Shown piece by piece: positions 18,108 to 36,978 of a stretch of 64,000 nucleotides of DNA (its first letter is position 1; every line of letters begins with the position of its first letter). Below the pieces are notes generated by a model. The model was given only the letters and a program-made list of their open reading frames with translations. It was not told the origin of the DNA and ran no database searches. The stretch lies in the sequence record OZ413487.1; one strand, 5' to 3'. Source of the DNA: a phage. The position numbers were made by a program, and so were the translations under genes.

Positions 18108-18126
18108 TACAACAAGGTGCACGGTC

Positions 18127-21159: not shown

Positions 21160-21372
21160 TCATAGTCTACCACCCCTGAACTCTTCGTGCTCAGGCATAA
21201 TAGAGAACCAGATATCTACGATGTCTTCCCACGTCAGGTCATCAGCCTCAGGATCTACCTGGAGCGAAGATGAAGAATCTTCAGAATCGAAGTTTTCCTC
21301 TTGCACTGGCTCAGTCAAGGGACATATAGTCACTCCTTTGGATGTCTCTTCAGATGCATGTGTGTTTATCAT
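21160..21372 (-). CDS. hypothetical acidic protein
   Basis: 70 aa; start overlaps the stop of an upstream micro-ORF (ATGA). Confidence 0.4.
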   Translation of the reverse strand: MINTHASEETSKGVTICPLTEPVQEENFDSEDSSSSLQVDPEADDLTWEDIVDIWFSIMPEHEEFRGGRL

Positions 21373-21458
21373 GTTCCACCCGTGAGTATTCCGGCAACAG
21401 CTGCTATGGACGTAATGATCATCAGGATCACCACTAAAACTTCGGACAATGTTCTCAT
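21369..21458 (-). CDS. 29-aa hydrophobic peptide
   Basis: Below track cutoff; GGAG SD 9 nt upstream; coupled to 21160..21372. Confidence 0.3.
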   Translation of the reverse strand: MRTLSEVLVVILMIITSIAAVAGILTGGT

Positions 21459-21732
21459 TGTGTACTCCATATTCTACAAACTATGTGTGGATACTATCAC
21501 TGGATCGGTAATGTGTCAACAGAAACGCCGCGAGGGTTTGGTTAAAATCCGAGCGTATGGTGATTTGGGTCAAAACGGACGTGCGTTCTCGCTACGCTCG
21601 AAATATGGAGTTGTTTGTAGGGAGCTCTTAAACGCTCTGTAATGAAATTAACTACCCAAGGTATGCAATCGTGCACCAGACAAAGAAAAGGACGCCACAG
21701 AGCGTCCTAGGTGTCTTAAATTTGATATTTTG

Positions 21733-22032
21733 CTATACCCACGAGGGCTTATCAAGGTTGGAGTAGCTGAAAGGTGTCAAAAGGTGACTGTCAAAATCTC
21801 TCAAACTATCCAAATCTTTTTCCTCGTCCTGACACCATCTGTGCCTACATTTGTTGTTGTAGTGCATGGAATGCATAGCGTTCTGCAACTTAACAGGCAC
21901 AAGTGATTCAGGAGTAGATAGTATTGTTGGGTATGCCAGAACCACCTCAAACAGTGGAAACACATCGAAACTAAAGTCTACCTCTGCAGAGGTTGATGGC
22001 ATATAGGAGTATTTAGCCGCCTTTGTAGACAT
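21733..22032 (-). CDS. hypothetical protein
   Basis: ATG 22032 after GAGGTGG SD (track 22044). Confidence 0.45.
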   Translation of the reverse strand: MSTKAAKYSYMPSTSAEVDFSFDVFPLFEVVLAYPTILSTPESLVPVKLQNAMHSMHYNNKCRHRWCQDEEKDLDSLRDFDSHLLTPFSYSNLDKPSWV

Positions 22033-22040
22033 AATCCACC

Positions 22041-22373
22041 TCACACAGGTTTGATAATACCTTCACCGAATAGCTCTTCGTATCTAATCTTGTCCGGATC
22101 CCACTCCTGTATAATTTCGAAGACAATATCCAACCCAGGAACAATCACTTCTCCAGTGTCAAGCTTAGCAAGAACAAAACCGGAAGGTTGAATGGTTTCC
22201 CAGTTACGGCGATCAGAATAAAATACTTCGAAAATATCACCAACCTCAATCCGTTTCTGTTGCTCAAGATGCTGAAGGTTCTCTTTCATACGGATGCAGC
22301 GTATTTTTCGTGCAGGCCATAGACCACCTGCATCACGTTCATTCAATTCTTTTACAGTGATCGGTATACCCAT
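22041..22373 (-). CDS. hypothetical protein
   Basis: 110 aa; GAAGGAGA SD. Confidence 0.55.
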   Translation of the reverse strand: MGIPITVKELNERDAGGLWPARKIRCIRMKENLQHLEQQKRIEVGDIFEVFYSDRRNWETIQPSGFVLAKLDTGEVIVPGLDIVFEIIQEWDPDKIRYEELFGEGIIKPV

Positions 22374-22394
22374 CTCAAGTCTCCTTCATGGATA

Positions 22395-22424
22395 GTAAAA
22401 AGAGGGGCCTAAGCCCCCCTCTTT
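22395..22424 (-). terminator. rho-independent terminator
   Basis: agagggggg-ctta-ggcccctct hairpin followed by TTTTT on the minus strand. Confidence 0.6.
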
Positions 22425-22428
22425 GTCA

Positions 22429-22734
22429 TTATTCTACAGAGCGTTTGAACAGAATGTCTGCCTCAGACATGTGCTCAACCTCTTCTTCGATTTTAGCTCG
22501 ACGTTTTTCAGCCTCATATCGAATATCGAACTCGGTAGCCACCAGAGATTTGATGAATTTAGGAGAATACAGATGATCCTGCTTCTCAACAAGAATGATA
22601 TCCTTGATGGCATCTTTCAAATCTTTAATCTGAAGCTGGAGTTCCACCAGTTCTTCAATTGTTTTGCGAAGGCGATCACGTTCTGCAGTGTCAGAAGGAA
22701 GAGAGGTGAACAGTTCAACTTTAGATTTAGCCAT
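22429..22734 (-). CDS. hypothetical protein (coiled-coil-like)
   Basis: 101 aa; AAGGAGA SD. Confidence 0.55.
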   Translation of the reverse strand: MAKSKVELFTSLPSDTAERDRLRKTIEELVELQLQIKDLKDAIKDIILVEKQDHLYSPKFIKSLVATEFDIRYEAEKRRAKIEEEVEHMSEADILFKRSVE

Positions 22735-22762
22735 AGTAAGAGTCTCCTTATGTTGTTTTAAA

Positions 22763-23014
22763 TTAACGTTCTACAAAAATACCGTTCAGTTCAATAACCA
22801 GGAATTTCTGGTCTTCACTATCGTCTCGTGCCAGCACCTCACAGACGTATCGGTCATCCCCATCATCATCGCAGTCAAATACAAGACTGAGGACTTTATC
22901 ATGGTAAACCTTCGCCACTACCGCCTCGTAAGTATTGCCGATTGTGAATCCAAGATAATCTCCGATGCATTTGACAACAACATGGTCTCCAGCATTTAAG
23001 TCAATCTTCGTCAT
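22763..23014 (-). CDS. hypothetical protein
   Basis: ATG 23014 after AAGGAGCG SD (track 23080). Confidence 0.5.
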   Translation of the reverse strand: MTKIDLNAGDHVVVKCIGDYLGFTIGNTYEAVVAKVYHDKVLSLVFDCDDDGDDRYVCEVLARDDSEDQKFLVIELNGIFVER

Positions 23015-23169
23015 TACTGCGCTCCTTGGGTAATAATACTGTATGTAAAACTTTAACCAGAGATGTGAATAACGCCCCAAAACACACCGATAGCGCTAAA
23101 ACAGACAAGGCCATCATTAAAGCTTCAGTAAAATCCGTCATTCCTCACCTCTTGTTAGTCACTATACTA

Positions 23170-23433
23170 TCATTTATCCTTGTCGTCAAGAACTTTTTTA
23201 AATCTTTCAGGGATATCTCCCGTTCTTAGATAGTTCATGACCTCGCAAGGTTCCCACTTGAATTTCTTACAGAGCAGGGCGGCTGAGATTGTTTCATTGC
23301 GAAAAGAAAGGATATTAATATCCCACTCTGAGAACCCCAACTTCCGAAGGGTAGCTACAGAAATCCTCACCGCAACCCAGCAGCAAAAACATGCAACAAA
23401 CGCCACTGCTACAACCCACATCAGGATGTTCAT
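23170..23433 (-). CDS. membrane protein (N-terminal TM helix)
   Basis: 87 aa; TAAGGTG SD. Confidence 0.5.
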   Translation of the reverse strand: MNILMWVVAVAFVACFCCWVAVRISVATLRKLGFSEWDINILSFRNETISAALLCKKFKWEPCEVMNYLRTGDIPERFKKVLDDKDK

Positions 23434-23522
23434 ATAAGCACCTTACTGAAATACAAGACACAGTGTTAAGGTTACTGACCAGCAAATAATTAACAGTGCC
23501 GTTGCAACCTTGGCAAGATTTA

Positions 23523-23810
23523 TCATAGTGCCTCTAAGATTTCATATCCTTCGGGTCGGAATACAAGCCACTCCGTGGCTCCGTTTGGTCGATACGCTTT
23601 ATACAGAACAACCTGATCTCGGCACATGCACATGGCTACATAGTTTTCATCCACACCTGCAGCCTGCATTGCATCTTCTTCTCCGGCAACCGCTTTGCTT
23701 ACAACTTCCTTGGTAGGCAGGTGTGCGATCAGCTCGTCACCATCATTAATTCCAAAATGGCTGAGTTCTCCATTGGTATCTTTGATCTTAATCTTAACCA
23801 GATCTTTCAT
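23523..23810 (-). CDS. hypothetical small acidic protein
   Basis: 95 aa; GGAGAAAG SD. Confidence 0.55.
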   Translation of the reverse strand: MKDLVKIKIKDTNGELSHFGINDGDELIAHLPTKEVVSKAVAGEEDAMQAAGVDENYVAMCMCRDQVVLYKAYRPNGATEWLVFRPEGYEILEAL

Positions 23811-24139
23811 TAGTCTTTCTCCAGGTTCAAAGGTCCTAAGATTTCATATGCCAGATTAGAAGTTACAAGAGGGTCTTCTGCGTCTTTAGTATTATACCAC
23901 CCGTGAATAACCAGAGTCCCACTTTGTTTCATGTCCAACTGTAACTCTTCTGCCGTTTCCTCATCCAGCTCCAAGATTTCCATAAGGTATTTGATGTTAG
24001 GGAGGTATGCAGCTGTTACAGTCCCCTCTACCAGACCTTCAGGCCAACCTACATCTGGATGACAAGTAGGAACCAGGTTGGTCAGCTTAATGGTGTACGC
24101 TTTTTCTGCACGAGCCTTCAGTAACGGGTCAATCTTCAT
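23810..24139 (-). CDS. hypothetical small acidic protein
   Basis: 109 aa; GAGGAGG SD; overlapping stop/start. Confidence 0.55.
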   Translation of the reverse strand: MKIDPLLKARAEKAYTIKLTNLVPTCHPDVGWPEGLVEGTVTAAYLPNIKYLMEILELDEETAEELQLDMKQSGTLVIHGWYNTKDAEDPLVTSNLAYEILGPLNLEKD

Positions 24140-24489
24140 TATTCGTCCTCCTCTTCGGTACCTGCTTCCAGTAATAAGTTAAGAATATCTTCTGCACAAG
24201 GCTCATAGAACTCTTGGCCTTCATTATCGATGATTTTATAGTCATCTCCACGAATAATCAGGGGATCACTCTCAAAATTATCGAGACCTTTAACAACGAC
24301 AACACGATCGATTGCCATCATTGTAAGAACTTTATCGACATCTTCCTCTGCTACACCATACTGCAGCAGAATGTCTTTGGTAGGAGGAACAGCATCCACC
24401 ACAACGCCGTTACCAAAACCTTCTGGAAGTTTAGCTAAAATATCTTCCGGAACCACATTCACATCAAAACCGGTAATTTCTACTTTCAT
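24139..24489 (-). CDS. hypothetical small acidic protein (family B)
   Basis: 116 aa; GAGGTG SD; MK(V/I)(E/K)... N-terminus and acidic C-terminus shared with 24490..24750 and 25914..26183. Confidence 0.55.
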   Translation of the reverse strand: MKVEITGFDVNVVPEDILAKLPEGFGNGVVVDAVPPTKDILLQYGVAEEDVDKVLTMMAIDRVVVVKGLDNFESDPLIIRGDDYKIIDNEGQEFYEPCAEDILNLLLEAGTEEEDE

Positions 24490-24750
24490 TTACAGCACCT
24501 CTTCGTCAACTACTTCATAAAAATGGCCTGGGATTGCAATAGCGTTCTCACCTTCACCTACAAACACAGTTCCGTCAAGAATCAACATCATAAGAATTTC
24601 TGTAATATCCTCTTCCGGAACGTTGCCAAAACCTTTAATCAGCTCGTAGGTTGGAATATTTACCTCTAAGATGTCACCATCTTTAGAACGGAAATCAACA
24701 CCGTCCTGAATCTCTGCCGTTTCAAGGTTTTTCAATTTAATCTTCATCAA
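24490..24750 (-). CDS. hypothetical small acidic protein (family B)
   Basis: 86 aa; CAGGAGA SD. Confidence 0.55.
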   Translation of the reverse strand: MMKIKLKNLETAEIQDGVDFRSKDGDILEVNIPTYELIKGFGNVPEEDITEILMMLILDGTVFVGEGENAIAIPGHFYEVVDEEVL

Positions 24751-24779
24751 TCGGTCTCCTGTCTTGTTAAGATGAAGGT

Positions 24780-24817
24780 ATTATTTCACACAGGGTTGGC
24801 GTTGTCAACACCTGTGT
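24780..24817 (-). promoter_or_regulatory. sigma70-like promoter flanked by inverted repeat
   Basis: Minus strand TTGACA-N17-AATAAT; inverted repeat cacacagg/cctgtgtg brackets the -35 box. Confidence 0.5.
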
Positions 24818-24826
24818 GCAAGAAAA

Positions 24827-25222
24827 TTACTGAAACAGTGCGGATAAATTACCTTCTGGTGGGAACTTATCTGCCAAAAACGGTGTTAGCACAGTAGCCC
24901 TCTGAAGATCTGGGGTCCACTCGTTGTTCAGAACATCCCAGTAGTACGCAATGTTGCTGTGTGGGTGCCGCATTACGAACTTTTTCCCTTCGTAGTCATC
25001 TGAAACCTCTACAGAAGAAATAACAACAGAATCTTCAAGGGTTTCTTCATAGAAAGATCCACCTTCAAATTTCCAACGAGATGCAAGAGCCCCTGCCTTG
25101 AACGCTGCAGATAACGGACTGTCGGCAAGAACATACATTTCTTGCACTCTGTCGCTGCGATCTTTGCTTCTTACGTTGTATACAGTATCTGAGCTATACT
25201 CAACACGGTATAGGCTTACCAT
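24827..25222 (-). CDS. hypothetical protein (family C)
   Basis: 131 aa; C-terminal region FVMRHPHSNIAYYWD..WTP aligns with FVIVHPDSRVKHYWN..WTP of 27029..27427. Confidence 0.55.
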   Translation of the reverse strand: MVSLYRVEYSSDTVYNVRSKDRSDRVQEMYVLADSPLSAAFKAGALASRWKFEGGSFYEETLEDSVVISSVEVSDDYEGKKFVMRHPHSNIAYYWDVLNNEWTPDLQRATVLTPFLADKFPPEGNLSALFQ

Positions 25223-25554
25223 TACCGAACCTCCTCAATAACTTCCACATCTGAACCTACCACAAATGCAAAAGGACAGGTTTCATGAAAGATATCCGGA
25301 TCGCCGCCAAGCTTGCTAACAATTTCTCCACCACTAATAAACACAAGCTCACCGATATTCATCAGATTGCTGAAATAGTACCCATAATGATTAAAGAATG
25401 CAGCAGGGTCAGGTAGACTAGTAGCCTCAAGCACTACATCGGTTGAGGTTACTTTCTTATCATAACCTCTCGCCTTTTGAGATGCAAGATCTGCAGAATC
25501 CTCAGGCGACCGGAGATGCACAGGAATTGTTTCACCAATAAAGCGTACTTTCAT
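25222..25554 (-). CDS. hypothetical small protein (family D)
   Basis: ATG 25554 overlapping upstream stop; MKV(R/K)(F/I/V)... family. Confidence 0.5.
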   Translation of the reverse strand: MKVRFIGETIPVHLRSPEDSADLASQKARGYDKKVTSTDVVLEATSLPDPAAFFNHYGYYFSNLMNIGELVFISGGEIVSKLGGDPDIFHETCPFAFVVGSDVEVIEEVR

Positions 25555-25558
25555 ATTA

Positions 25559-25822
25559 TCACCCAACAACCATAGCTTCAAAAGGAGTCATGAACGAATA
25601 AACGGCATCATCATCTGCTTCAGGGAATGCTCCCAAAGACTTCATATCTGAGCCCTTGACAAATACAAGGTTTTGATCAAAGGCTTCTTGGGGGTCAATC
25701 CGATACATATTTCGTAAAATATCGCTTACCTCCTCATCAAGAGGTGAGTATGCTGTGCACGTTTTTCCGATCAAGCTTTGAGAATCAGGGTATCCACCTG
25801 AAGTTTTAAAATAAACAATCAT
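25559..25822 (-). CDS. hypothetical small protein (family D-like)
   Basis: 87 aa; GAGGTGA SD. Confidence 0.5.
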   Translation of the reverse strand: MIVYFKTSGGYPDSQSLIGKTCTAYSPLDEEVSDILRNMYRIDPQEAFDQNLVFVKGSDMKSLGAFPEADDDAVYSFMTPFEAMVVG

Positions 25823-25913
25823 ATAGTATCACCTCTGGTAAGAGATTGGGACTCCTTTCCCACAAATAATTACAAATCTTCCTTAGCGAGGAAGTATGCT
25901 AATCCAAGCAGGA

Positions 25914-26183
25914 TTATTCCTCTACAATCTCATACACATCAGGAGTTACAATCAACTCTTCTCCGTTACCCGGTGCAACAAACACCACCAAACCTTCAGG
26001 TGTGTGCTTTTTAGCCATCTCGATAACATCTTCTCGCAGAGCTGGCTCCATCAGATCAAAACCTTCACCTAGGGCATCACGAACCACCTTCATATAGTCC
26101 ACTGGTTGTGCTTCAACAATCATGCCTTCAACCAGTCCACAATTTTTGTCTGCCAGCTCAGTTTGGAATAATTTAATTTTCAT
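25914..26183 (-). CDS. hypothetical small acidic protein (family B)
   Basis: 89 aa; GAGGAGA SD; hairpin downstream. Confidence 0.55.
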   Translation of the reverse strand: MKIKLFQTELADKNCGLVEGMIVEAQPVDYMKVVRDALGEGFDLMEPALREDVIEMAKKHTPEGLVVFVAPGNGEELIVTPDVYEIVEE

Positions 26184-26209
26184 TTAGAGGTCTCCTCAAT
26201 TATTTGATA

Positions 26210-26311
26210 TTAATAGCCGTAACCTAACACATTAACTACAACTGCGATTGCAAACATAATTTCAAAGCATGCAATCTCTACATTTGGGACTAATTTCTTA
26301 ATCACACCCAT
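26210..26311 (-). CDS. 33-aa hydrophobic peptide
   Basis: Below track cutoff; GGAGAATGAGGTG SD; immediately downstream of the HPF-like gene. Confidence 0.3.
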   Translation of the reverse strand: MGVIKKLVPNVEIACFEIMFAIAVVVNVLGYGY

Positions 26312-26320
26312 TGTAGCACC

Positions 26321-26638
26321 TCATTCTCCAAAGTCAATCTTTACTTTGCCTTTCCCCTTACCTTTCTTTCCACCGCATTTAGCCAGCTGACGTGCTGCAA
26401 CATCTACCATACGGTCAGTTGCCTCGTAAGCATCACTGCCTTTAGCCTTGGCAATAACTTCTTTTCCAGAATTGTCAAAAATGAACGCCATAACTTCCTG
26501 GTGATCATTTTCAACTTTTACACTCACACGTGCATAGTTGGCAGAGGGATGCAAACGCTCCAACTTAGACATTTTGTGGGAAATGAAAGACACCATACCT
26601 TCAGTGATTTCTACGTTGCCAGTGATTTCAATTTGCAT
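26321..26638 (-). CDS. ribosome hibernation promoting factor / RaiA-family homolog
   Basis: 105 aa; MQIEITGNVEITEGM...KLE...VSVKVE...ARQLAK follows E. coli HPF MQLNITGNNVEITEAL...KLE...VVLKVE...ARQLTK; K/G-rich C-terminal tail; AAGGAAC SD. Confidence 0.7.
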   Translation of the reverse strand: MQIEITGNVEITEGMVSFISHKMSKLERLHPSANYARVSVKVENDHQEVMAFIFDNSGKEVIAKAKGSDAYEATDRMVDVAARQLAKCGGKKGKGKGKVKIDFGE

Positions 26639-26685
26639 AACGTGTTCCTTTTAAAGAAGAGGGAACCGAACCCTCTTTGAAAACA

Positions 26686-26714
26686 ATGATACTAAATCTG
26701 AAGCGTTGTGTCAA
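26686..26714 (-). promoter_or_regulatory. sigma70-like promoter upstream of HPF-like gene
   Basis: Minus strand TTGACA-N17-TATCAT; 5' UTR contains hairpin aagaggg-ttcggtt-ccctctt. Confidence 0.5.
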
Positions 26715-26720
26715 CAGTTT

Positions 26721-27011
26721 TTACAGATTGTTGTCGATAGTTTTTAAAATATCCACAGCAAGATCTGCCATTTTTCGAACATACTCTGCAAACTCAACAG
26801 GATCCTTGATCAAAGAATTCACAGGGTCGTACCCTAGAGCGTTCAAAATGGCTGCAGCATCTACAACCTTCTCATCATTTGCGAAGATCTCTCCATCAAA
26901 CTTGTAGGTCCATTTTGAGTCAATCTTGGCAGGGAATGATTGGTCAACGCTTGTTACACCATCCTTTTTAAACGCTCCGGTGTTATCAGTGTCTAGAACT
27001 AAATCCATCAT
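26721..27011 (-). CDS. hypothetical protein
   Basis: 96 aa; GGTGAGGT SD. Confidence 0.5.
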   Translation of the reverse strand: MMDLVLDTDNTGAFKKDGVTSVDQSFPAKIDSKWTYKFDGEIFANDEKVVDAAAILNALGYDPVNSLIKDPVEFAEYVRKMADLAVDILKTIDNNL

Positions 27012-27028
27012 GTTAGTACCTCACCGTT

Positions 27029-27427: not shown

Positions 27428-27439
27428 AACGGTTACCCA

Positions 27440-28488: not shown

Positions 28489-28491
28489 AAT

Positions 28492-28581
28492 TCAGCCTCG
28501 CATAGACATAATCACTATAAACAGGCAAACAATGAATCCGAATGCCACGCCACCCATAAACGTTAATATTGATGCAATCAT
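28492..28581 (-). CDS. 29-aa hydrophobic peptide
   Basis: Below track cutoff; GCGAGGCTG SD; stop overlaps next start. Confidence 0.3.
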   Translation of the reverse strand: MIASILTFMGGVAFGFIVCLFIVIMSMRG

Positions 28582-28583
28582 AG

Positions 28584-28769
28584 TCAATCAGCCTCGCTTG
28601 GCAACTCTTCTACCTTAACATGCCGAAAAGTGTTACCGTAATGGTTGATCCATGACATCAGCTCGCTTTCTTGCTCTTCCTCTGGGATGAACTCTCGAAT
28701 GCTGACAAGTTTTAAGAAAACCCAATCACAATCTGCACCCATTCTACCAGACAGGCAATAGTGCTTCAT
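28584..28769 (-). CDS. hypothetical protein
   Basis: 61-aa track ORF. Confidence 0.4.
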   Translation of the reverse strand: MKHYCLSGRMGADCDWVFLKLVSIREFIPEEEQESELMSWINHYGNTFRHVKVEELPSEAD

Positions 28770-28787
28770 AAAAACCCCCCGCCTGGT

Positions 28788-29610: not shown

Positions 29611-29672
29611 TCTCTCTACCTCTTTCTTAGTTTATTTCACTATGGCACATCCTTTGTGCCATATCTCAACCA

Positions 29673-30134: not shown

Positions 30135-30334
30135 CCCTCATCGCACGTCTGATATAACCACTCTATGAAATCTTGATACCATTCGCCCTCTGAGCGCTCC
30201 GTAGGCCAATAATCTTCACCCTCTCGTGCATTAAAATCTGAGTATTCAACTTTCCACTCCTTTACCAGCTCGTGGAGAAGGTTTTCAGCCTGCTCTAAAG
30301 ATTTATTTTTTGCCATTGCTGTCTCCTTTTTCAA
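30131..30334 (-). CDS. hypothetical protein
   Basis: 67 aa; AAAGGAGA SD. Confidence 0.5.
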   Translation of the reverse strand: MKKETAMAKNKSLEQAENLLHELVKEWKVEYSDFNAREGEDYWPTERSEGEWYQDFIEWLYQTCDEG

Positions 30335-30399
30335 GATAGTTATACATCAGAACTGCACCACCTAAGATGGCTACCAGTAACAATATCCCAGATAGCATC

Positions 30400-30552
30400 T
30401 CAATAAACATGGCTTGAAACACTGGAAGGTCTCCCTAAATTAACGCACCATTTTAAATACATGCTCTTTTCCCATAAAGGTGCCTGGCTAAGATCTGCGT
30501 AGAACGCAATCTCTTTAAGAACAGTATAGATAGTTTTAGGTGCGGTCTCCAT
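30400..30552 (-). CDS. hypothetical protein (doubtful)
   Basis: ATG 30552 after AGGAAGGAGAG SD (track 30588); overlaps a competing micro-ORF. Confidence 0.3.
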   Translation of the reverse strand: METAPKTIYTVLKEIAFYADLSQAPLWEKSMYLKWCVNLGRPSSVSSHVY

Positions 30553-30763: not shown

Positions 30764-30793
30764 TGGTCCTCCCTTTGTAGGTTAAATTGTATA

Positions 30794-31318: not shown

Positions 31319-31323
31319 ACCTG

Positions 31324-31557
31324 TCACTCCTCCACAACTTCAAGGCCTTTACCGCCTCGCTCTGGCAGATTACTTAAAGATAGGTAATACATATAATCAG
31401 GAGAGATCCTGCCAGACTCTGCACCTGCAGCTAGTAAATCCTTCCCTTTAACCAGGACAACATTCTCGTTTGCAGATAGCCGTTTTGCTTCCACAATTTT
31501 ACCAACACAGTCAACCAAGGAAGGGTACCCTAAATCTGTAAGAAATTTAACTTTCAT
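31324..31557 (-). CDS. hypothetical small protein (family D)
   Basis: 77 aa; MKVKFL...DLLAAGA; GGTAGGAGG SD. Confidence 0.55.
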   Translation of the reverse strand: MKVKFLTDLGYPSLVDCVGKIVEAKRLSANENVVLVKGKDLLAAGAESGRISPDYMYYLSLSNLPERGGKGLEVVEE

Positions 31558-31594
31558 GCTACCTCCTACCTACCGTCCCTGGTAAGATAAATTA

Positions 31595-31993
31595 TTACTG
31601 AACAGAGCGCGGTGCTGGGAAGGATAACTCCTCTAAAGAGAAGATTTCATTTCCTACCACCCAAGTTGCTGGGTCATCTGGATCAACAGGTTGGATAATC
31701 ATTACCTCATCCGCCTCGCACACACGTTTCCCACCCATAGTAGCGTCAGCCACTAACATACGCGGCTCTTCAGAAATGCACAGGTAGCCACCTCGGCCCA
31801 CTGTTCCTTCCACGGGATCCTGCCCTTTGACCACAATGAATACCTTCTCTCCTGTGGAGATATTACTTTTCACACTAACAGTTTGACCAACTTTAGATGT
31901 ACCGATCTTGGTGGCTTCAAACATTAAATCCCGAATTACTGTTGCATAGTTGCCGGACACTTTCTTACCTTCTTTAGTAATCTCAATCTTCAT
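31595..31993 (-). CDS. hypothetical protein
   Basis: 132 aa; AAGGAGC SD. Confidence 0.55.
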   Translation of the reverse strand: MKIEITKEGKKVSGNYATVIRDLMFEATKIGTSKVGQTVSVKSNISTGEKVFIVVKGQDPVEGTVGRGGYLCISEEPRMLVADATMGGKRVCEADEVMIIQPVDPDDPATWVVGNEIFSLEELSFPAPRSVQ

Positions 31994-32229
31994 AATCTAG
32001 GCTCCTTAAATGAATCTATGTAATCAATTAAATCCCAAGCATCGCGATGGGCTGTCAGAGGGTATACTTCTCCGAGAGGGATCATAGCAATAAGTCTATC
32101 AAAAACCCAGTCTGGACGCAACATTTTATGGTGATATTCCCACTCACCTTCCACAGATTTTTTCTGAGTTATCAGGATCTCTGTGTAGTGTTTCTCCTGT
32201 CTTGAGTAGATTGAAAATGACTTGTACAT
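31990..32229 (-). CDS. hypothetical protein
   Basis: ATG 32229 after AGAGGGGG SD (track 32265 TTG). Confidence 0.5.
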   Translation of the reverse strand: MYKSFSIYSRQEKHYTEILITQKKSVEGEWEYHHKMLRPDWVFDRLIAMIPLGEVYPLTAHRDAWDLIDYIDSFKEPRL

Positions 32230-32265
32230 AAATGACCCCCTCTTGTTGAAAACAACAATACACAA

Positions 32266-32550
32266 CTACCAGGTTACTGTCAAGTAGGCAACCGTATTAT
32301 TTTTCTCTGGGGAGATGCCAACAACATCTACCTGCAGACCTCCTGCCCTTAAATCTCCAACAATGTGAGGGAAGTAATCTGAGAGATGCGAGGGTAGATT
32401 TATCGAAAATCCGCACCCCAGAAAGCCTGCTAACGCTTTATTTTGTATCTCCCCCACAATCGCATCATAAATGGAGTTAAGCTCGTCAGGGAGCGTTACA
32501 GGACGTTTTAGCGCTAACTGGTGTAATTTGTCCTTAGCACTCATTTTCAT
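32266..32550 (-). CDS. hypothetical protein
   Basis: ATG 32550 overlapping upstream TGA (track 32580). Confidence 0.5.
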   Translation of the reverse strand: MKMSAKDKLHQLALKRPVTLPDELNSIYDAIVGEIQNKALAGFLGCGFSINLPSHLSDYFPHIVGDLRAGGLQVDVVGISPEKNNTVAYLTVTW

Positions 32551-33080
32551 TTCAGGTCTACCTCTGGAGGTGCCAACCACATAAACGGCGGCAAGTCTAA
32601 ACGGTTTTTCTTATCCCACACAAAATATGCATATGCTTGCCCGTCAGTTCTGCCGTTTGATTGAAATGATGGACGCTTAGATATTGTGATCACAGTAGTA
32701 GGTGCATTATCAAGCCACCATTCAAATCTGGCTTTGCTTTCCAGAAAATTAAGACGCAAAAGCATAATAACTACGTCAGCATCTTTCAACGCCTTGTCTA
32801 CAAACTCACGAGCCAGGCTGTATGGTGGGTTGGTGATAATACAGTCAACATGGTTGTATTCTGTATTCAGATAGTCAACACCTTCTTGTATTTCTCCCCA
32901 TGCAGATCCTAACGGCATACGGGAGTAGAACACACCTGAGGCACTATTCCTGCAAGGCTCTAAGTAGGTCCAGTCTTCTGGGAACGGAATAAGGTCATAC
33001 AGCCCTTCTGCACACCACTCCGGTGTCACATACTCATCGTAGGCGTTACGTTGTTCATCAGGTTTTCGAGCACAAGTCAT
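32547..33080 (-). CDS. DNA methyltransferase (amino-methyltransferase, NPPY motif)
   Basis: 177 aa; DCIITNPPYS catalytic motif IV typical of N6-adenine/N4-cytosine MTases; no adjacent restriction gene. Confidence 0.6.
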   Translation of the reverse strand: MTCARKPDEQRNAYDEYVTPEWCAEGLYDLIPFPEDWTYLEPCRNSASGVFYSRMPLGSAWGEIQEGVDYLNTEYNHVDCIITNPPYSLAREFVDKALKDADVVIMLLRLNFLESKARFEWWLDNAPTTVITISKRPSFQSNGRTDGQAYAYFVWDKKNRLDLPPFMWLAPPEVDLK

Positions 33081-33096
33081 GCAAATCTCCAGATCA

Positions 33097-33121
33097 TAAA
33101 AGCCCTCCGAAGAGGGCTTTA
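33097..33121 (-). terminator. rho-independent terminator
   Basis: aaagccctc-ttcg-gagggcttt hairpin followed by TTATGAT on minus strand. Confidence 0.6.
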
Positions 33122-33131
33122 GAATTAATGT

Positions 33132-34181
33132 TTAAGCTTCTTCGACAATTCCTGCACCCAGGATTTTTTCATTGAGCTCTTTTGCTGTTTTAATAATATT
33201 GTCCACCAGACGCTTGCGAGTCTTATCTTTTACCTTAACCTCTTCACCGCCGTTTAGGGTTGTCTTCAATTGGGACAAAATGTCTTGAAGTTCAACGACA
33301 GAGAATCGCTGCAGATCTTCTGAGGTAATCTCACCTAAGGCAATCTTAACGGTCTCACCACTTTCCATCTGCAGGTTCAGGAACACAGTGTGAACATCCC
33401 CTTTCGAACCACCCGCTTTTGCAGATTCAACAGCATGAACTAACTCATCTAAAGATGTGCACTGGTGAATCTCCGGAAGACCTGCTTCACCTAACACGCC
33501 TTCTTCATCACCTTTTGCCAGAAGCTTTTTCGGTTTTTGTCCGTTCTGGATGCGTTGTATGTTGCCTTCATCCAGAATAATAGCTCCAGTGCGTGCTGCC
33601 AGCTCTTCTCCGTCCAACCACACTTCGCCACCAGCTGTGATGGATGCGATCTCATCTTCTGTCAGCACCCCACCGTAGTATTTTTCGATCAGGCGTTCAA
33701 AACGTTTTTTCCAGTAGCTGACCTGAGTATTCATGTTCACACCGTTACCATAAGTGCCACCTTGATAGTAGTGGAACATAAACTCTGTGTCCGGAGCCAC
33801 AGTACGTTCTTTGCAACCCAGCCATAAGATTGTTCCCGCAGAGCAGCACATCCCTTCCGCATGTGCAACAACGCTTGCCTGAGACTCGCGGAATGCCTGC
33901 AGATAAGCCATCGCAATGTGCACGCAACCACCAGGGCTGTTAATGATCACTCGAATGCTTTCTTCAGGCTGAGCCATACGGATCGTCTGCAGGCGAGACA
34001 TATGATCCTGCAGGTCTTCCAAATCGTCGATATAAAGAACGTGGTCAACAACAGGTGTTGGGTAGCTGTATGTTTCCATGATACCGCCCGGCATACCAAA
34101 CATTTTATTACTCATAGGTTCGAAACCGTTCTGTTTCTCTTTCATGCCGTGTACCATGGTGCTGCGAGGTGTTAAATTCAT
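33132..34181 (-). CDS. ClpP-like serine peptidase (S14 family)
   Basis: 349 aa; INSPGG and GMCCSAG motifs resembling ClpP LNSPGG / GQAASMG; long C-terminal extension. Confidence 0.6.
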   Translation of the reverse strand: MNLTPRSTMVHGMKEKQNGFEPMSNKMFGMPGGIMETYSYPTPVVDHVLYIDDLEDLQDHMSRLQTIRMAQPEESIRVIINSPGGCVHIAMAYLQAFRESQASVVAHAEGMCCSAGTILWLGCKERTVAPDTEFMFHYYQGGTYGNGVNMNTQVSYWKKRFERLIEKYYGGVLTEDEIASITAGGEVWLDGEELAARTGAIILDEGNIQRIQNGQKPKKLLAKGDEEGVLGEAGLPEIHQCTSLDELVHAVESAKAGGSKGDVHTVFLNLQMESGETVKIALGEITSEDLQRFSVVELQDILSQLKTTLNGGEEVKVKDKTRKRLVDNIIKTAKELNEKILGAGIVEEA

Positions 34182-34241
34182 GAGAAATCCTTAATATTGG
34201 AAGTTGAAAGCTATTTATTTAAACCTGATTCACATTTACCT

Positions 34242-34553
34242 TTATTTAGCAATCACTATGGAATACTTACGATTGTCAGAAGCATCACAGCTCAATGATT
34301 GCCAGTCTACCACATACCACGTATCATTGTCAACAATTACTTTATCGCCTGTTCTGTAGCAAGTGCTGCTTTCAATAATTCGAGACTCGATAAAGAATCT
34401 GTGTCGGCGCTCACGTAGCAACGCTAAGTTAATTATATTACCACCGCTGTCCTTGGTCCACACATTCTTGGATCCCTTATTTGCCAAAATTGTCTCGCCG
34501 TTATAGACAAACAGGCAGTATATTTTATTCAGTTTCTCTTGTATTGTAGCCAT
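34242..34553 (-). CDS. hypothetical protein
   Basis: 103 aa; AGAGAGAAGGA SD. Confidence 0.5.
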   Translation of the reverse strand: MATIQEKLNKIYCLFVYNGETILANKGSKNVWTKDSGGNIINLALLRERRHRFFIESRIIESSTCYRTGDKVIVDNDTWYVVDWQSLSCDASDNRKYSIVIAK

Positions 34554-34571
34554 ACTGTCCTTCTCTCTGTT

Positions 34572-34600
34572 TTGTCCGATAATAATATCTAAAGCTTACC
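34572..34600 (-). promoter_or_regulatory. sigma70-like promoter
   Basis: Minus strand TTGACA-N17-TATTAT; preceded by bidirectional hairpin 34620-34650 after PhoH stop. Confidence 0.5.
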
Positions 34601-34654
34601 TATTTGTCAACAACTGTTTTAGATATTTAAGGGTGGAATAACCACCCTTCTGTA

Positions 34655-35443
34655 TTACTCGGAAACAGGGGTCCAAATATGATTTGCACGATCCTCAATA
34701 AGATTGAGTGCGATCTGACGACCCAACCCAGAACGAACGACATCGTCTGGACTATCAAAGCTGATCATTCCAACCTCAGGATCTGGATGACGAGTAAAGA
34801 AATCCGTCACCCATGCAAGGCCAGATTTACCAGGGATGTCACGTTGGCTATTATCACCCATAATTACAAGGGTGGCTTGATCAGAGATCCTTGTGATAAT
34901 TGACAACATTTCTTCAGGGTTAGTTTGCTGTGCCTCGTCAATCAGGACAAAGCATCGCTCATCGAAACTACGACCACGAATGCTTTCAACTTCACAAATC
35001 TCGATACGACTGTTCTGACCGTCTCCCAGCATTGCGGCAAAAGCACCTTTGCCAACACGACGACAAATCGTGTCCATCATGCTTCGAAGATAGGGCCACA
35101 GTTTCTGCATTGCATTTCCGGGTTTAAATCCTGAAGTCTTTCCTGTCTGGACGTAAGGACGTGCAACAATGATCTTATCAATCTCATTCTTACGCAGAAG
35201 ATCACCTGCATATGCAGATGCCATGAATGTCTTACCGGATCCAAACACACCGTTTACAATAATAATCTTACGTGACCCTAGATAATCAAGATACTTTTGC
35301 TGCTTTTTATTCATTGGTCGGAGAGCTGGAGCGGTGTGCTCTCGTTCGTCAGCAAATTTCTCAGCAGCCTTACGCAGGCGATCAGATTTGCGAGCCTCTC
35401 TAGCTTCATCACGCATGCGTTTTGTTTCTTTAGCTCGACCCAT
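34655..35443 (-). CDS. phoH: PhoH-like ATPase
   Basis: 262 aa; Walker A GVFGSGKT and overall PhoH-like layout; AAAGGAG SD. Confidence 0.7.
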   Translation of the reverse strand: MGRAKETKRMRDEAREARKSDRLRKAAEKFADEREHTAPALRPMNKKQQKYLDYLGSRKIIIVNGVFGSGKTFMASAYAGDLLRKNEIDKIIVARPYVQTGKTSGFKPGNAMQKLWPYLRSMMDTICRRVGKGAFAAMLGDGQNSRIEICEVESIRGRSFDERCFVLIDEAQQTNPEEMLSIITRISDQATLVIMGDNSQRDIPGKSGLAWVTDFFTRHPDPEVGMISFDSPDDVVRSGLGRQIALNLIEDRANHIWTPVSE

Positions 35444-35481
35444 GTTGGGACTCCTTTCAGATTGAGATGTGCCAAGTACTT

Positions 35482-35832
35482 TTACTGCAACAGTTTTTCA
35501 ATAGCCGCTTCCATGCTGCTTGCAACAGCCTGAACTCGGATATTCATCTCTTCTTGGTGGATCAGCTCCTTAAGCTCTTTAATGGTAAATTCTTTAGAGA
35601 AACCTTCCACCATAATCTTGTGCAAGGCTTCTTGCGTGTCTACTTGCAAGAACTTTTCCAGTTTGTTGGCAGAGGCTTCTAAATCAGCCCGAATACGAGG
35701 GTCATCTGTGCGATTCAGCATTAGGCGTAAGCCATCAAGATTAGTAGAAATAGCGTCTGCATGTTGAGTAACTAACCGTGGCAAAATGAGATCTACAAAC
35801 TTATTAGCCAAATCGATACGTTCTTGTGTCAC
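35482..35832 (-). CDS. hypothetical protein
   Basis: 116 aa; GTG start after AGAGGGGG SD. Confidence 0.5.
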   Translation of the reverse strand: MTQERIDLANKFVDLILPRLVTQHADAISTNLDGLRLMLNRTDDPRIRADLEASANKLEKFLQVDTQEALHKIMVEGFSKEFTIKELKELIHQEEMNIRVQAVASSMEAAIEKLLQ

Positions 35833-35942
35833 TGTTGCACCCCCTCTTCATCCTCATGATATTTCTTTTCACGCTTGTGTTTTTTCTTAAGCTCAAGCGC
35901 AATCTCTTTTTTGTACGCCTTCTTCAAGGCTTTTTTAGCCAT
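35829..35942 (-). CDS. 37-aa basic peptide
   Basis: Below track cutoff; strong GAGGAGGTG SD; K-rich; stop overlaps next GTG start. Confidence 0.4.
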   Translation of the reverse strand: MAKKALKKAYKKEIALELKKKHKREKKYHEDEEGVQQ

Positions 35943-36004
35943 TTGGCACCTCCTCTGCTCTCATTACGCTAATTATAACCAACTTAACAAAGCTTTGTCA
36001 ACGA

Positions 36005-36478
36005 TTAGTCAACCTGAACCCAACCATCTGCTACCTTTTTAAACATTCTTTGGTTATCACTACCTCTGAATGGTTTTTTGGTGGGGTTATCTTTTTCGTA
36101 CTTACCATCCATAATGTAATCGACACTATCTTTAATATAATCTGGGACTTCTTCAAACAAATACCCTGTGTACACCCAGATAGTTTTTGTGTTGCCGAAG
36201 CGTTCACGGATAGCGAGAATGATCGAGTACATACCATCGATATTGTAAGGCGCTAAAGGTTCGCCACCACACAATGTAACTCCGGTAATATGTTTCGGCT
36301 CTATAGAGTGAAGTATACTCTCAATTGTGTCATTTGTTAACGGTTCCCCTTTAGCGGGTGACCAAACACTTTTGTTTTGGCAACCAACACAGTGATGTGG
36401 ACAACCAGAACAGAACACCGTTGTCCTAATGCCTGGGCCGTCAACCATGCTACACTCTATAATATTAACAACATTCAT
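36005..36478 (-). CDS. nrdG: anaerobic ribonucleotide reductase activating protein (radical SAM)
   Basis: 157 aa; CSGCPHHCVGC radical-SAM cluster motif; same operon as nrdD. Confidence 0.75.
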   Translation of the reverse strand: MNVVNIIECSMVDGPGIRTTVFCSGCPHHCVGCQNKSVWSPAKGEPLTNDTIESILHSIEPKHITGVTLCGGEPLAPYNIDGMYSIILAIRERFGNTKTIWVYTGYLFEEVPDYIKDSVDYIMDGKYEKDNPTKKPFRGSDNQRMFKKVADGWVQVD

Positions 36479-36711
36479 TCCTTACCCTCTTTGAGGTAGG
36501 GATATTCAGGCCCACAATAAGCTCTATCTAAGAAAACAGCTTCTTCCCCTCTGGAATCAGTAGATCTATAATACCCATCACCCTGGTAACTAACGAACCA
36601 GTAGCACCCATCATCGCTTTCTACTGTTGTGGCTCTGTCCGAATGAAAGATAATTTCGTAATCCTTGCCGAATGTAAACCATCTGTTAGCTTTTACACAG
36701 ACACCTACCAT
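36475..36711 (-). CDS. hypothetical protein
   Basis: 78 aa; AGAGAGG SD; overlaps nrdG start. Confidence 0.5.
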   Translation of the reverse strand: MVGVCVKANRWFTFGKDYEIIFHSDRATTVESDDGCYWFVSYQGDGYYRSTDSRGEEAVFLDRAYCGPEYPYLKEGKE

Positions 36712-36861
36712 AAGGAACCTCTCTTCTGTGGTGTGCTTCTATTCAAGATAAACTTATAAAAGTCCATTTGATGAAGCCGTATAACTTTTTATACTTACGC
36801 TTCAGTGCTAACAATTTTATCTTGAGTTTCTTGATAGATTTCCGCATTTCGACCCCTTATG

Positions 36862-36978
36862 CTTATAAGTACTCTGCATCGCATTCAGGACAATGCCAAA
36901 TAAAATCGTCCAGTGCCTTGCACCAACGAAGATTGCAACGACAACCACACTTGCAAATTTTATAAATACCTTTAGACA
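36862..36978 (-). CDS. 38-aa cysteine-rich peptide
   Basis: Below track cutoff; AGGAGGT SD; 8 Cys in CKCGCRC...CPEC pattern (zinc-binding-like). Confidence 0.35.

What the first reader, a model, noticed from the sequence alone, without database searches (positions are those of the whole stretch)
21369..36978. Unannotated micro-ORFs (28-38 aa) with strong ribosome-binding sites, mostly hydrophobic peptides coupled to neighbouring genes
Five candidates fall below the 60-aa track cutoff yet have SD sequences and stop/start overlaps with neighbours: 21369-21458, 26210-26311, 28492-28581 (single-TM peptides), 35829-35942 (lysine-rich) and 36862-36978 (8-Cys zinc-ribbon-like, between nrdD and nrdG). 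A similar 39-aa TM peptide is at 15601-15720 on the + strand. Such micro-proteins are usually missed by annotation.
Basis: seen in the sequence. Interest (0 to 1): 0.4.

Follow-up and report, generated by a model that had tools for sequence, protein, structure and literature searches.

The report
Small conserved genes in rV5-like phage
Most of the short reading frames flagged in this rV5-like E. coli phage are real, conserved small genes of unknown function, but nearly all are already listed as hypothetical proteins in public records, so the finding is largely ordinary.

Summary
The window is a Vequintavirus (rV5-like E. coli myovirus). All six ORFs exist. Corrections: c5 is 36863-36979, not 36862-36978, and has 7 Cys plus 1 His, not 8 Cys. 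Stop/start overlaps occur only at c1 and c4. The c3 ribosome-binding site is poorly spaced.

In a 16-genome alignment, five ORFs show coding-type substitution (synonymous excess, intact frames): c1, c3, c4, c5 and c6. For c2 the test is inconclusive (7 synonymous/12 non-synonymous), and phage Mangalyan carries an in-frame stop in it.

"Unannotated" is wrong. Five match PHROG families, and the exact peptides c1, c2, c3, c5 and c6 are in NCBI as hypothetical proteins.

New details:
- c5 is an invariant 7-Cys peptide. In most relatives, including a divergent lineage, it overlaps the nrdG start; in an SP6-like podovirus it overlaps the DNA ligase start.
- c3 is a 96-nt cassette bounded by a repeat that combines a ribosome-binding site, a stop and a start. 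It is present in 91 of about 128 relatives and also in an E. coli prophage family.

Functions remain unknown. The most likely roles are membrane-inserted modulators (c1, c3, c6, possibly c2), a metal-binding partner protein (c5) and a charged helical peptide (c4). Interest is low.

The parts
21369..21458 (-). c1: 29-aa single-helix membrane peptide (MRTLSEVLVVILMIITSIAAVAGILTGGT). It is the first ORF after an early promoter, and its stop overlaps the ATG of the 70-aa gene 21160-21372.
   Evidence: Sequence and context. Substitutions 10 synonymous/2 non-synonymous, p=9e-5. The ORF is kept in 13 of 15 relatives, truncated by a 70-nt insertion in ECP26 and deleted in B9-1. Matches phrog_34195. 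Identical to NCBI YP_009593991.1.
21491..21519 (-). Sigma-70-type promoter-like site TTGACA-17-TAGTAT (with an extended -10 TG) upstream of c1.
   Evidence: Consensus scan only, 10 of 12 matches. Not tested experimentally.
26210..26311 (-). c2: 33-aa ORF with a hydrophobic C-terminal part, between the RaiA/HPF-like gene (26321-26638) and the 89-aa gene (25914-26183). This is the weakest candidate.
   Evidence: ORF intact in 16 of 17 sequences, but Mangalyan has a TAG at codon 12. In D1, ATG>ATA is accompanied by GTG>ATG two codons later. Substitutions 7 synonymous/12 non-synonymous, p=0.10. Matches phrog_15151. Found in 118 phage records, all Vequintavirus. Promoter-like hexamers at 26337-26310 overlap its start.
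28492..28581 (-). c3: 29-aa fully hydrophobic peptide (MIASILTFMGGVAFGFIVCLFIVIMSMRG), carried on a 96-nt presence/absence cassette.
   Evidence: Present in 91 phage records; absent in Murica, SophiaRose and IMG/VR contig L006. Substitutions 7 synonymous/4 non-synonymous, p=0.005. Intact 29-aa homologues in E. coli prophages differ only by hydrophobic swaps. Identical to NCBI QXV75708.1 and others.
28588..28597 (-). Upstream copy of the direct repeat GCGAGGCTGA that bounds the c3 cassette.
   Evidence: Alignment of genomes with and without c3. The same repeat bounds the prophage copy.
28492..28501 (-). Downstream copy of GCGAGGCTGA. It forms the last codons and stop of c3 and supplies the GAGG ribosome-binding site for the next gene (ATG at 28488).
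35829..35942 (-). c4: 37-aa peptide that is lysine-rich at the N-terminus and acidic at the C-terminus. Its stop overlaps the GTG start of the 116-aa gene 35482-35832.
   Evidence: Substitutions 12 synonymous/5 non-synonymous, p=1.4e-6; intact in 12 of 12. A 41-aa homologue with an ATGA overlap onto a 133-aa gene is kept in the divergent contigs L021, L035 and L036. Matches phrog_7670. Annotated as rV5 ORF118.
35972..36001 (-). Perfect-consensus sigma-70 promoter-like site TTGACA-18-TATAAT upstream of c4 (annotated as P118 in rV5).
   Evidence: Consensus match only.
36863..36979 (-). c5: 38-aa peptide with 7 invariant Cys (MSKGIYKICKCGCRCNLRWCKALDDFIWHCPECDAEYL), between nrdD and nrdG.
   Evidence: Substitutions 16 synonymous/8 non-synonymous, p=1.4e-7; intact in 11 of 12. 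Against L021/L036, 13 synonymous versus 2 non-synonymous codons. The seven Cys are invariant in 13 sequences, while H29 varies. Its stop overlaps the nrdG start in FFH2, ECP26, SophiaRose, L021 and L036. Matches phrog_20137.
   Evidence: Annotated in PMBT16, MaxTheCat and rV5. An 82%-identical copy sits at the same place in L035. Too few substitutions to test (3/3).
15601..15720 (+). c6: 39-aa peptide with a charged N-terminus and a C-terminal membrane helix. It is the last ORF of its operon, downstream of a gene annotated 'putative holin' in MaxTheCat.
   Evidence: Substitutions 11 synonymous/5 non-synonymous, p=6e-5; intact in 6 of 6. Matches phrog_13629. Annotated as rV5 ORF181 and MaxTheCat bas57_0114.
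15725..15752 (+). Intrinsic-terminator-like hairpin GGCCCCC-GATCAT-GGGGGCC followed by TATCTTTT, just after c6.
   Evidence: Read directly from the sequence. A terminator is annotated at the same place in Murica.
30303..30422 (-).
   Evidence: Substitutions 20-21 synonymous/4-5 non-synonymous, p=3e-10; intact in 13 of 13. Matches phrog_15251.
23001..23141 (-).
   Evidence: Substitutions 16 synonymous/13 non-synonymous, p=1.5e-4; intact in 15 of 15. Matches phrog_16755.

Best explanation
The candidates are ordinary small protein-coding genes of the early and accessory gene blocks of an rV5-like (Vequintavirus) phage. They are transcribed from sigma-70-type promoters and translated from their own ribosome-binding sites, packed tightly against or overlapping their neighbours.

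Shown here:
- c1, c3, c4, c5 and c6 evolve under purifying selection on the encoded peptide, and their frames are maintained. c2 is probable but unproven.

Inferred:
- c1, c3 and c6, probably c2, and the two extra ORFs at 30303-30422 and 23001-23141 insert into the inner membrane as single helices. There they likely act by binding host or phage membrane proteins, for example to exclude superinfecting phages or to adjust transport or lysis timing. Such functions are accessory, which fits c1, c2 and c3 each being lost or broken in some viable relatives.
- c5 folds around metal ions through its seven invariant cysteines. Because its stop overlaps the next gene's start, it is made together with the downstream enzyme. 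That enzyme is NrdG in most relatives and DNA ligase in ACG-C91. c5 most likely acts as a small partner or electron/metal-handling protein.
- c4 is a charged helical peptide made at a fixed ratio with the 116-aa protein that follows it.
For: Identity of the window: 97-98% identical to phages isim, ime and APECc02.

Coding test on a 16-genome alignment. Known long genes give p<1e-7 and out-of-frame ORFs give p=0.3-1. The candidates give:
- c5: p=1.4e-7.
- c4: p=1.4e-6.
- c1: p=9e-5.
- c3: p=0.005.
- c6: p=6e-5.

Competing annotations fail the same test:
- The rV5 ORF114-like frame over c5 gives 12 synonymous/32 non-synonymous and is intact in only 5 of 12.
- rV5 ORF162 reads c1 DNA in the wrong frame.

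Distant conservation:
- c5 and c4 keep their order in contigs whose nrdD is only 74-76% identical at DNA level.
- c5 differs from the L021/L036 copies by 13 synonymous and 2 non-synonymous codons.
- c3 is intact in E. coli prophages at 77-89% DNA identity.

Other support:
- Ribosome-binding sites and overlaps.
- Promoter-like sites.
- Hydropathy.
- Seven invariant Cys in c5.
- Public annotation.
- The rV5 genome paper already describes 88 mainly small ORFs and 15 membrane proteins in this region (PMC3606486).
Against: - There is no direct evidence of translation (no ribosome profiling or mass spectrometry) for any of them.
- c2 shows 7 synonymous/12 non-synonymous changes (p=0.10), has a nonsense allele in Mangalyan, and has promoter-like hexamers overlapping its start.
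- The c3 ribosome-binding site is 10 nt from its ATG, and promoter-like hexamers overlap its start too.
- Substitution counts per ORF are small (11-25), and alleles were scored one at a time in the reference codon.
- No candidate matches Pfam or NCBIfam.
- The c5 structure models are only moderately confident (pLDDT 66-71) and have no significant structural neighbour.
- c5 sits next to DNA ligase, not NrdG, in ACG-C91. That weakens a role specific to ribonucleotide reduction.
Confidence: 0.8

Rival explanations
1. Some of the ORFs, above all c2 and possibly c3, are not genes. On this view they are conserved intergenic spacers that carry internal promoters or 5' leaders for the downstream gene, and the open frame is incidental.
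For: - Promoter-like hexamers end exactly at the c2 start (26337-26310) and the c3 start (28604-28577).
- The Gotham record annotates 'promoter' under both.
- c2 lacks a synonymous excess, and its 3' two-thirds is nearly invariant at DNA level with the few changes being non-synonymous.
- c2 has a nonsense allele in Mangalyan.
Against: - c2 is open in 16 of 17 sequences. Its ribosome-binding site is conserved, and a lost start codon in D1 is accompanied by a new ATG two codons on.
- The c2 region has no unusual RNA fold (z=-0.26).
- High-identity stretches are common along this genome, so DNA conservation alone is uninformative.
- c3 keeps exactly 29 codons with only hydrophobic replacements in a completely different prophage context. 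A promoter would not require that.
Confidence: 0.12
2. The ORFs are translated, but only the act of translation matters. They would serve as coupling or leader ORFs that deliver ribosomes to the next gene or prevent polarity, and the peptides themselves would have no function.
For: - ATGA or GTGA overlaps occur at c1 and c4 in the window.
- The c5 stop overlaps the nrdG start in relatives and the DNA ligase start in ACG-C91.
- The c3 cassette regenerates the ribosome-binding site, stop and start junction for its downstream gene.
Against: - There is a synonymous excess and conservation at the amino-acid level, including seven invariant Cys in c5.
- Peptide length and hydrophobic character are kept in c3 at 77% DNA identity.
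- In genomes without c3 the downstream gene is coupled directly to the upstream gene, so c3 is not needed for coupling.
Confidence: 0.06
3. The true genes at these places are the longer alternative-frame ORFs annotated in the rV5 reference. These are ORF114 (75 aa) over c5 and ORF162 (101 aa) over c1, or an antisense ORF as annotated in FFH2.
For: Those ORFs are annotated in NC_011041 and NC_024134.
Against: - The ORF114-like frame (window 36817-37008) gives 12 synonymous/32 non-synonymous (p=0.32) and is interrupted in 7 of 12 relatives.
- Substitutions across c1 fall at third positions of the c1 frame, not of the ORF162 frame.
Confidence: 0.02

Closest known systems
Hypothetical proteins already deposited for Vequintavirus genomes and their PHROG families (phrog_34195, 15151, 7670, 20137, 13629). 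Examples: rV5 ORF118, ORF145 and ORF181; Murica gp132; FFH2 ORF107; MaxTheCat bas57_0114, 0135, 0151, 0159, 0179 and 0183.
   Same: These are the same genes. Peptides are identical or more than 90% identical and sit at the same positions.
   Different: Nothing differs in kind. Annotation is inconsistent between records. c3 is annotated in only a minority of records. c5 is replaced by a wrong-frame ORF in rV5 and by a 'terminator' in Murica. No function is assigned anywhere.
Bacterial and phage single-helix membrane micro-proteins, such as E. coli MgrB, AcrZ, KdpF and MgtS, type I toxins such as TisB, and T4 early membrane proteins such as Imm. This comparison rests on general knowledge and was not tested here.
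   Same: Length of 29-46 aa, one hydrophobic helix, and accessory, frequently lost genes.
   Different: No sequence similarity to any of them. Targets, topology and toxicity are unknown.
Zinc-ribbon and rubredoxin-type metal knuckle modules.
   Same: c5 has a CxC knuckle (CxxC in distant homologues), followed about 15-20 residues later by a W-x-C-P-x-C knuckle, as in zinc ribbons and rubredoxins. The weak best PDB sequence hits are eL43, PolD zinc ribbons and rubredoxin. The top structural neighbours are two-zinc modules.
   Different: No hit is significant (E at least 0.7; Foldseek E above 2). c5 has three further invariant Cys and a much shorter spacer than rubredoxin. The family has only 3-4 clusters among 1.84 billion representative proteins.
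Phage 'morons', meaning small independently acquired accessory genes inserted between conserved genes (general knowledge).
   Same: c3 is a discrete unit that is present or absent between two conserved genes. It is shared by unrelated virulent and temperate coliphages.
   Different: A classic moron carries its own promoter and terminator. c3 is only 96 nt and is bounded by a 10-14-nt repeat that combines a ribosome-binding site, a stop and a start, so it plugs into an existing translationally coupled junction.

Membership tests
Genuine protein-coding small ORF | Canonical start codon preceded by a ribosome-binding site at 4-9 nt. | tested here: met
   Met for c1, c2, c4, c5 and c6. c3 has GAGG at 10 nt, which is sub-optimal.
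Genuine protein-coding small ORF | Reading frame kept open in related genomes. | tested here: met
   c4 12/12, c5 11/12, c6 6/6, c3 10/10 plus 3 prophages, c1 13/15, c2 16/17 with one nonsense allele.
Genuine protein-coding small ORF | Excess of synonymous, third-position substitutions in the proposed frame only. | tested here: met
   c1, c3, c4, c5 and c6 give p=0.005 to 1e-7; the other two frames give p above 0.3. c2 is inconclusive (p=0.10).
Genuine protein-coding small ORF | Direct detection of translation or of the peptide. | not testable with these tools
   No ribosome-profiling or small-protein mass-spectrometry data were available. The rV5 proteomics covered virions only.
Zinc ribbon / rubredoxin-like metal-binding module (c5) | Two Cys knuckles (CxxC/CxC ... 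CPxC) that are conserved. | tested here: met
   C9, C11, C30 and C33, plus C13, C15 and C20, are invariant in 13 sequences.
Zinc ribbon / rubredoxin-like metal-binding module (c5) | Significant sequence or structure match to a known zinc-ribbon or rubredoxin family. | tested here: not met
   Pfam: none. PDB phmmer best E=0.7. AlphaFold2 pLDDT 66-71. Foldseek best E=2.2.
Zinc ribbon / rubredoxin-like metal-binding module (c5) | Bound Zn or Fe. | not testable with these tools
   Needs purified protein and metal analysis.
Single-pass membrane micro-protein (c1, c2, c3, c6) | A hydrophobic segment of at least 17 residues that could span the membrane. | tested here: met
   Best 17-residue Kyte-Doolittle means are 2.38-2.83.
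Single-pass membrane micro-protein (c1, c2, c3, c6) | Membrane localisation. | not testable with these tools
   Requires fractionation or tagging.
Class III ribonucleotide reductase accessory protein (c5; annotated 'ribonucleotide reductase' in phrog_20137 and several records) | Homology to NrdD or NrdG, or obligate linkage to them. | tested here: not met
   There is no similarity to NrdD or NrdG families. Linkage to nrdG holds across three nrdG alleles but is broken in ACG-C91, where c5 precedes DNA ligase. The name is an annotation by position only.
Lysis-cassette component (c6) | Adjacency to a demonstrated holin or endolysin, or spanin/antiholin features. | tested here: inconclusive
   The neighbour is only a 'putative holin' in one annotation. 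The rV5 paper proposes a different holin and places the lysin elsewhere. c6 has no lipobox or spanin-like domain.

The most novel reading that the evidence does not exclude
c3 may represent a minimal mobile gene unit. It is a 96-nt cassette encoding a 29-aa membrane peptide. Its terminal repeats (CGAGGCTGA-(T/A)T-ATG, which combine a ribosome-binding site, a stop and a start) would let it insert into, or be excised from, any translationally coupled gene junction without disturbing the neighbours. That would explain its spread between virulent rV5-like phages and an unrelated family of E. coli prophages. This would be a 'plug-in micro-moron' mechanism not described so far.
Probability: 0.15. 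Interest if true: 0.55.

Novelty: already known. Interest (0 to 1): 0.22.

Why it matters
As a gene-finding result it adds little. These ORFs are already in GenBank and PHROGs as hypothetical proteins, and the rV5 genome paper already noted the many small ORFs and membrane proteins in this region.

The work does have practical value for annotation:
- It separates real micro-genes (c1, c3, c4, c5, c6, 30303-30422, 23001-23141) from doubtful ones (c2).
- It identifies small ORFs annotated in relatives that show no coding signal (21542-21676, 21075-21173).
- It identifies wrong-frame annotations in reference genomes (rV5 ORF114 and ORF162).

Two leads could repay experiments:
- c5, an invariant 7-Cys peptide co-translated with NrdG across three divergent nrdG alleles.
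- c3, a tiny membrane-peptide cassette shared by virulent and temperate coliphages.

Tried and rejected
- tblastn with c4 found nothing, probably because of low-complexity masking. Its distant homologue was found by synteny instead.
- IMG/VR scans with back-translated motifs for c2 and c6 found only close Vequintavirus relatives.
- The c5 motif scan gave mostly unrelated WHCPECD hits plus one useful contig, L021.
- Pfam and NCBIfam had no family for any peptide.
- The HMMER search of 1.84 billion proteins with c5 returned only 3-4 true clusters. The 1093-aa and 248-aa hits are repeat-protein artefacts.
- Two AlphaFold2 runs for c5 gave moderate, mutually inconsistent models, and Foldseek gave no significant neighbour. 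No fold is claimed.
- The 'terminator' annotated inside c5 in Murica is not unusually stable (z=-0.49), and the c2 region has no RNA-fold signal. An RNA-element reading was dropped.
- c2's strong DNA conservation was first taken as a hint of a non-coding element. Similar high-identity stretches are frequent across the region, so this is uninformative.
- I tested whether c5 hitch-hikes with a homing endonuclease. The ACG-C91 neighbour is DUF3310, not an HNH protein, and is unrelated to the HNH gene beside c5 in L021.
- No tRNA or Rfam family lies in the ORF-free 17-21.5 kb stretch.

Full report
**Context**

The window is part of a Vequintavirus (rV5-like E. coli myovirus) genome. Region 21000-37500 is 97-98% identical over its full length to phages isim, ime and APECc02, and 95% identical to rV5 itself. 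The five main candidates lie on the minus strand in the long block of small early and accessory genes. c6 lies on the plus strand in the neighbouring block. The rV5 genome paper already states that this part of the genome holds "88 mainly small ORFs", that 15 proteins have transmembrane domains, and that a stretch (rV5 104013-106618) has no ORFs (PMC3606486).

**Observation**

All six ORFs exist.
- c1 (21369-21458, 29 aa) has GGAG 6 nt before its ATG, and its TGA overlaps the ATG of the next gene.
- c2 (26210-26311, 33 aa) has GAGGTG at 5 nt but does not overlap either neighbour.
- c3 (28492-28581, 29 aa) has only GAGG at 10 nt and sits 2 and 3 nt from its neighbours.
- c4 (35829-35942, 37 aa) has AGGAGGTG at 4 nt and a GTGA overlap with the next gene.
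- c5 is 36863-36979. It has AGGAGGT at 5 nt, and 7 Cys plus 1 His, not 8 Cys.
- c6 (15601-15720, 39 aa) is followed by a GC-rich hairpin and a T-run.

Four peptides (c1, c2, c3, c6) have a 17-residue window with mean hydropathy of 2.4-2.8. Consensus sigma-70 promoter-like sites precede c4 (TTGACA-18-TATAAT, 12 of 12 matches) and c1 (TTGACA-17-TAGTAT).

In random sequence of the same dinucleotide make-up, an ATG ORF of at least 29 aa with a ribosome-binding site arises at 4e-4 per nt. That is about 0.01-0.02 per gap, so five such ORFs filling five intergenic gaps is well above chance.

**Comparative test**

I aligned window 20900-37150 with 15 related genomes or contigs at 80-98% identity. For every ORF of at least 25 aa on the coding strand I counted synonymous and non-synonymous alleles against the expectation for that ORF. 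The test behaves well. All long genes give p from 1e-7 to 1e-90 with third-position excess, and ORFs in wrong frames give p of 0.3-1.

Results for the candidates:
- c5: 16 synonymous/8 non-synonymous, p=1.4e-7, intact in 11 of 12.
- c4: 12/5, p=1.4e-6, intact in 12 of 12.
- c1, counted from ATG 21458: 10/2, p=9e-5.
- c3: 7/4, p=0.005, intact in 10 of 10 genomes that have it.
- c6, from a separate 7-genome alignment: 11/5, p=6e-5, intact in 6 of 6.

Competing annotations fail the test.
- The rV5 ORF114-type frame across c5 gives 12/32 and is broken in 7 of 12 relatives.
- rV5 ORF162 is the 70-aa gene extended upstream through c1 in the wrong frame.

The upstream ATG at 21470 is destroyed in one relative while the ATG at 21458 is kept.

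c2 is the weak one. With three more variants added it has 7 synonymous and 12 non-synonymous alleles (p=0.10). In phage D1 the loss of its start codon is accompanied by a new ATG two codons downstream. Phage Mangalyan has an in-frame TAG at codon 12.

c1 is also dispensable. It is truncated by a 70-nt insertion in ECP26 and deleted together with its promoter in B9-1.

- 30303-30422: 21/5, p=3e-10.
- 23001-23141: p=1.5e-4.

It also found two small ORFs annotated in relatives that have no coding signal, 21542-21676 and 21075-21173.

**Annotation status**

- Five of the six peptides match PHROG families over their full length (E=4e-21 to 5e-31). c3 does not.
- All six are annotated in the BASEL-collection phage MaxTheCat. 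The five early-region ORFs are also annotated in PMBT16.
- rV5 has c2, c4 and c6 as ORF145, ORF118 and ORF181.
- Murica has c1, c2, c4 and c6. FFH2 has c4, c5 and c6.
- Exact sequences of c1, c2, c3, c5 and c6 are NCBI proteins.
- c3 is the only one that most records leave unannotated.

**c5**

All seven cysteines are invariant in 13 sequences. H29 is replaced by Tyr in two of them. A search of 1.84 billion representative proteins finds only 3-4 genuine clusters of 38-54 aa.

Divergent 136-140-kb phage contigs (L021, L035, L036; nrdD only 74-76% identical at DNA level) keep the order nrdD, c5, nrdG. They differ from the window's c5 by 13 synonymous and 2 non-synonymous codons out of 29.

In FFH2, ECP26, SophiaRose, L021 and L036, the c5 stop overlaps the nrdG start. 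In the window and in rV5, a 34-aa basic ORF (c7, 36743-36847) and a 78-aa gene shared with Rtp-like siphoviruses are inserted between c5 and nrdG.

nrdG itself occurs as three alleles that are only about 50% identical in protein, set between the conserved c5 and a conserved nrdG 3' end. c7 travels with the window-type allele. So c5 stays while its downstream partner is exchanged.

A 77-79%-identical copy of c5 sits, unannotated, in the SP6-like podovirus ACG-C91 between a DUF3310 gene and DNA ligase. Its stop again overlaps the downstream start.

The label "ribonucleotide reductase" on phrog_20137 is therefore positional only. The pattern CxC (CxxC in distant homologues) ... W-x-C-P-x-C resembles zinc-ribbon or rubredoxin knuckles. 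No sequence or structure match is significant, however.

**c3**

c3 is a 96-nt unit present in 91 phage records and precisely absent in Murica, SophiaRose and IMG/VR contig L006. It is bounded by the direct repeat GCGAGGCTGA.

Its cluster includes E. coli chromosomal proteins. The DNA is found in 10 of 5,426 complete E. coli genomes at 77-89% identity. It always lies in one prophage family, after the holin, lysozyme, Rz and a 180-aa gene, and before the terminase.

There the ORF is again exactly 29 codons, differs only by hydrophobic swaps, and is bounded by the same CGAGGCTGA-TT-ATG junction. A second membrane micro-ORF follows it in tandem.

This makes c3 a horizontally shared micro-gene. 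Whether c3-less phages are deletions between the repeats, or c3-bearing phages are insertions, cannot be decided from these data.

**How it most likely works**

Shown: the frames are conserved and evolve as coding sequence. Ribosome-binding sites and, for c1 and c4, promoter-like sites are present. Overlaps link c1, c4 and (in relatives) c5 to the next gene.

Inferred:
- The hydrophobic peptides insert in the inner membrane and modulate host or phage membrane proteins. They are accessory, given the natural losses of c1, c2 and c3.
- c5 binds metal through its cysteines and is produced together with the following enzyme.
- c4 is a basic-acidic helix produced with its 116-aa partner, a pairing kept in the distant contigs.

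Specific targets are unknown. The link of c6 to lysis rests on one "putative holin" annotation, which disagrees with the rV5 paper.

**Verdict**

These are mostly real but ordinary small genes. They are already known as hypothetical proteins, have no assigned function, and include one doubtful member (c2). The c5 and c3 observations are modest new leads.

Noticed in passing
window 36005-36979; loci L010, L009, L008, L021, L035, L036: nrdG occurs as three alleles that are only ~50% identical in protein. One is the window/rV5/L035 type, one the FFH2/Murica/SophiaRose type, and one the L021/L036 type. They are exchanged between the conserved c5 gene and the conserved last ~25 codons of nrdG. The 34-aa ORF c7 travels with the window-type allele.
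   Followed up: partly
window 36475-36711 (-): The 78-aa gene between c7 and nrdG is shared at 70-82% DNA identity with Rtp-like siphoviruses (Rtp, ACG-M12, Sd1, JeanPiccard). It is absent from about half of the Vequintavirus genomes. It matches phrog_3249, function unknown.
   Followed up: partly
between nrdD and c5 in relatives (L001 16522-17549; L008 925-2085; L021 1922-2431; L035 7699-8172): The nrdD/c5 junction and nrdD itself are hot spots for homing-endonuclease insertions. There is an HNH gene in L021 and L035 and a GIY-YIG gene in SophiaRose, and nrdD is split in several contigs. The window has no such insertion.
   Followed up: partly
window ~18100-20900: A stretch of about 2.6 kb between the two divergent gene blocks has no convincing ORF, tRNA or Rfam family. 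It is nevertheless among the best conserved parts (95-98% versus an 80% average against contig L006). It corresponds to the 'non-coding' box of the rV5 paper.
   Followed up: partly
window 140-375 (+): Rfam group I intron hit (64.7 bits, E=4e-14). The rV5 paper discusses an intron in its TerL (large terminase) gene. I did not check which gene lies at 140-375.
   Followed up: no
window 62768-63577 (+): Cluster of six tRNA genes.
   Followed up: no
window 21542-21676 (-) and 21075-21173 (-): Small ORFs annotated as hypothetical proteins in PMBT16 and MaxTheCat show no coding-type substitution pattern (11 synonymous/43 non-synonymous and 6/18). They are probably over-annotations.
   Followed up: yes
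window 15359-15580 (+): The 73-aa ORF between the 'putative holin' and c6 is open in all relatives but shows no synonymous excess (5/23). In rV5, SophiaRose and IMG/VR contig L034 its stop codon is replaced, so the frame would run on; the rV5 and SophiaRose records annotate a longer ORF that overlaps the c6 start.
   Followed up: partly
L040 5107-5202; L042 3098-3193 (E. coli prophages): Directly after the c3 homologue the prophages carry a second unannotated 31-aa membrane micro-ORF (MDECIIAGLIGISVFLVGFLIAVLITVKSRF), joined by the same TGATTATG junction.
   Followed up: no
GenBank MG0656xx records (loci L025-L028): About 19 records named 'Campylobacter phage' (UNVERIFIED, unannotated) are ordinary Vequintavirus genomes 93-97% identical to this E. 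coli phage. Their host label is doubtful.
   Followed up: no
window 26321-26638 (-): The gene upstream of c2 is annotated in relatives as a ribosome hibernation factor / RaiA-like protein, an unusual phage-encoded translation factor.
   Followed up: no
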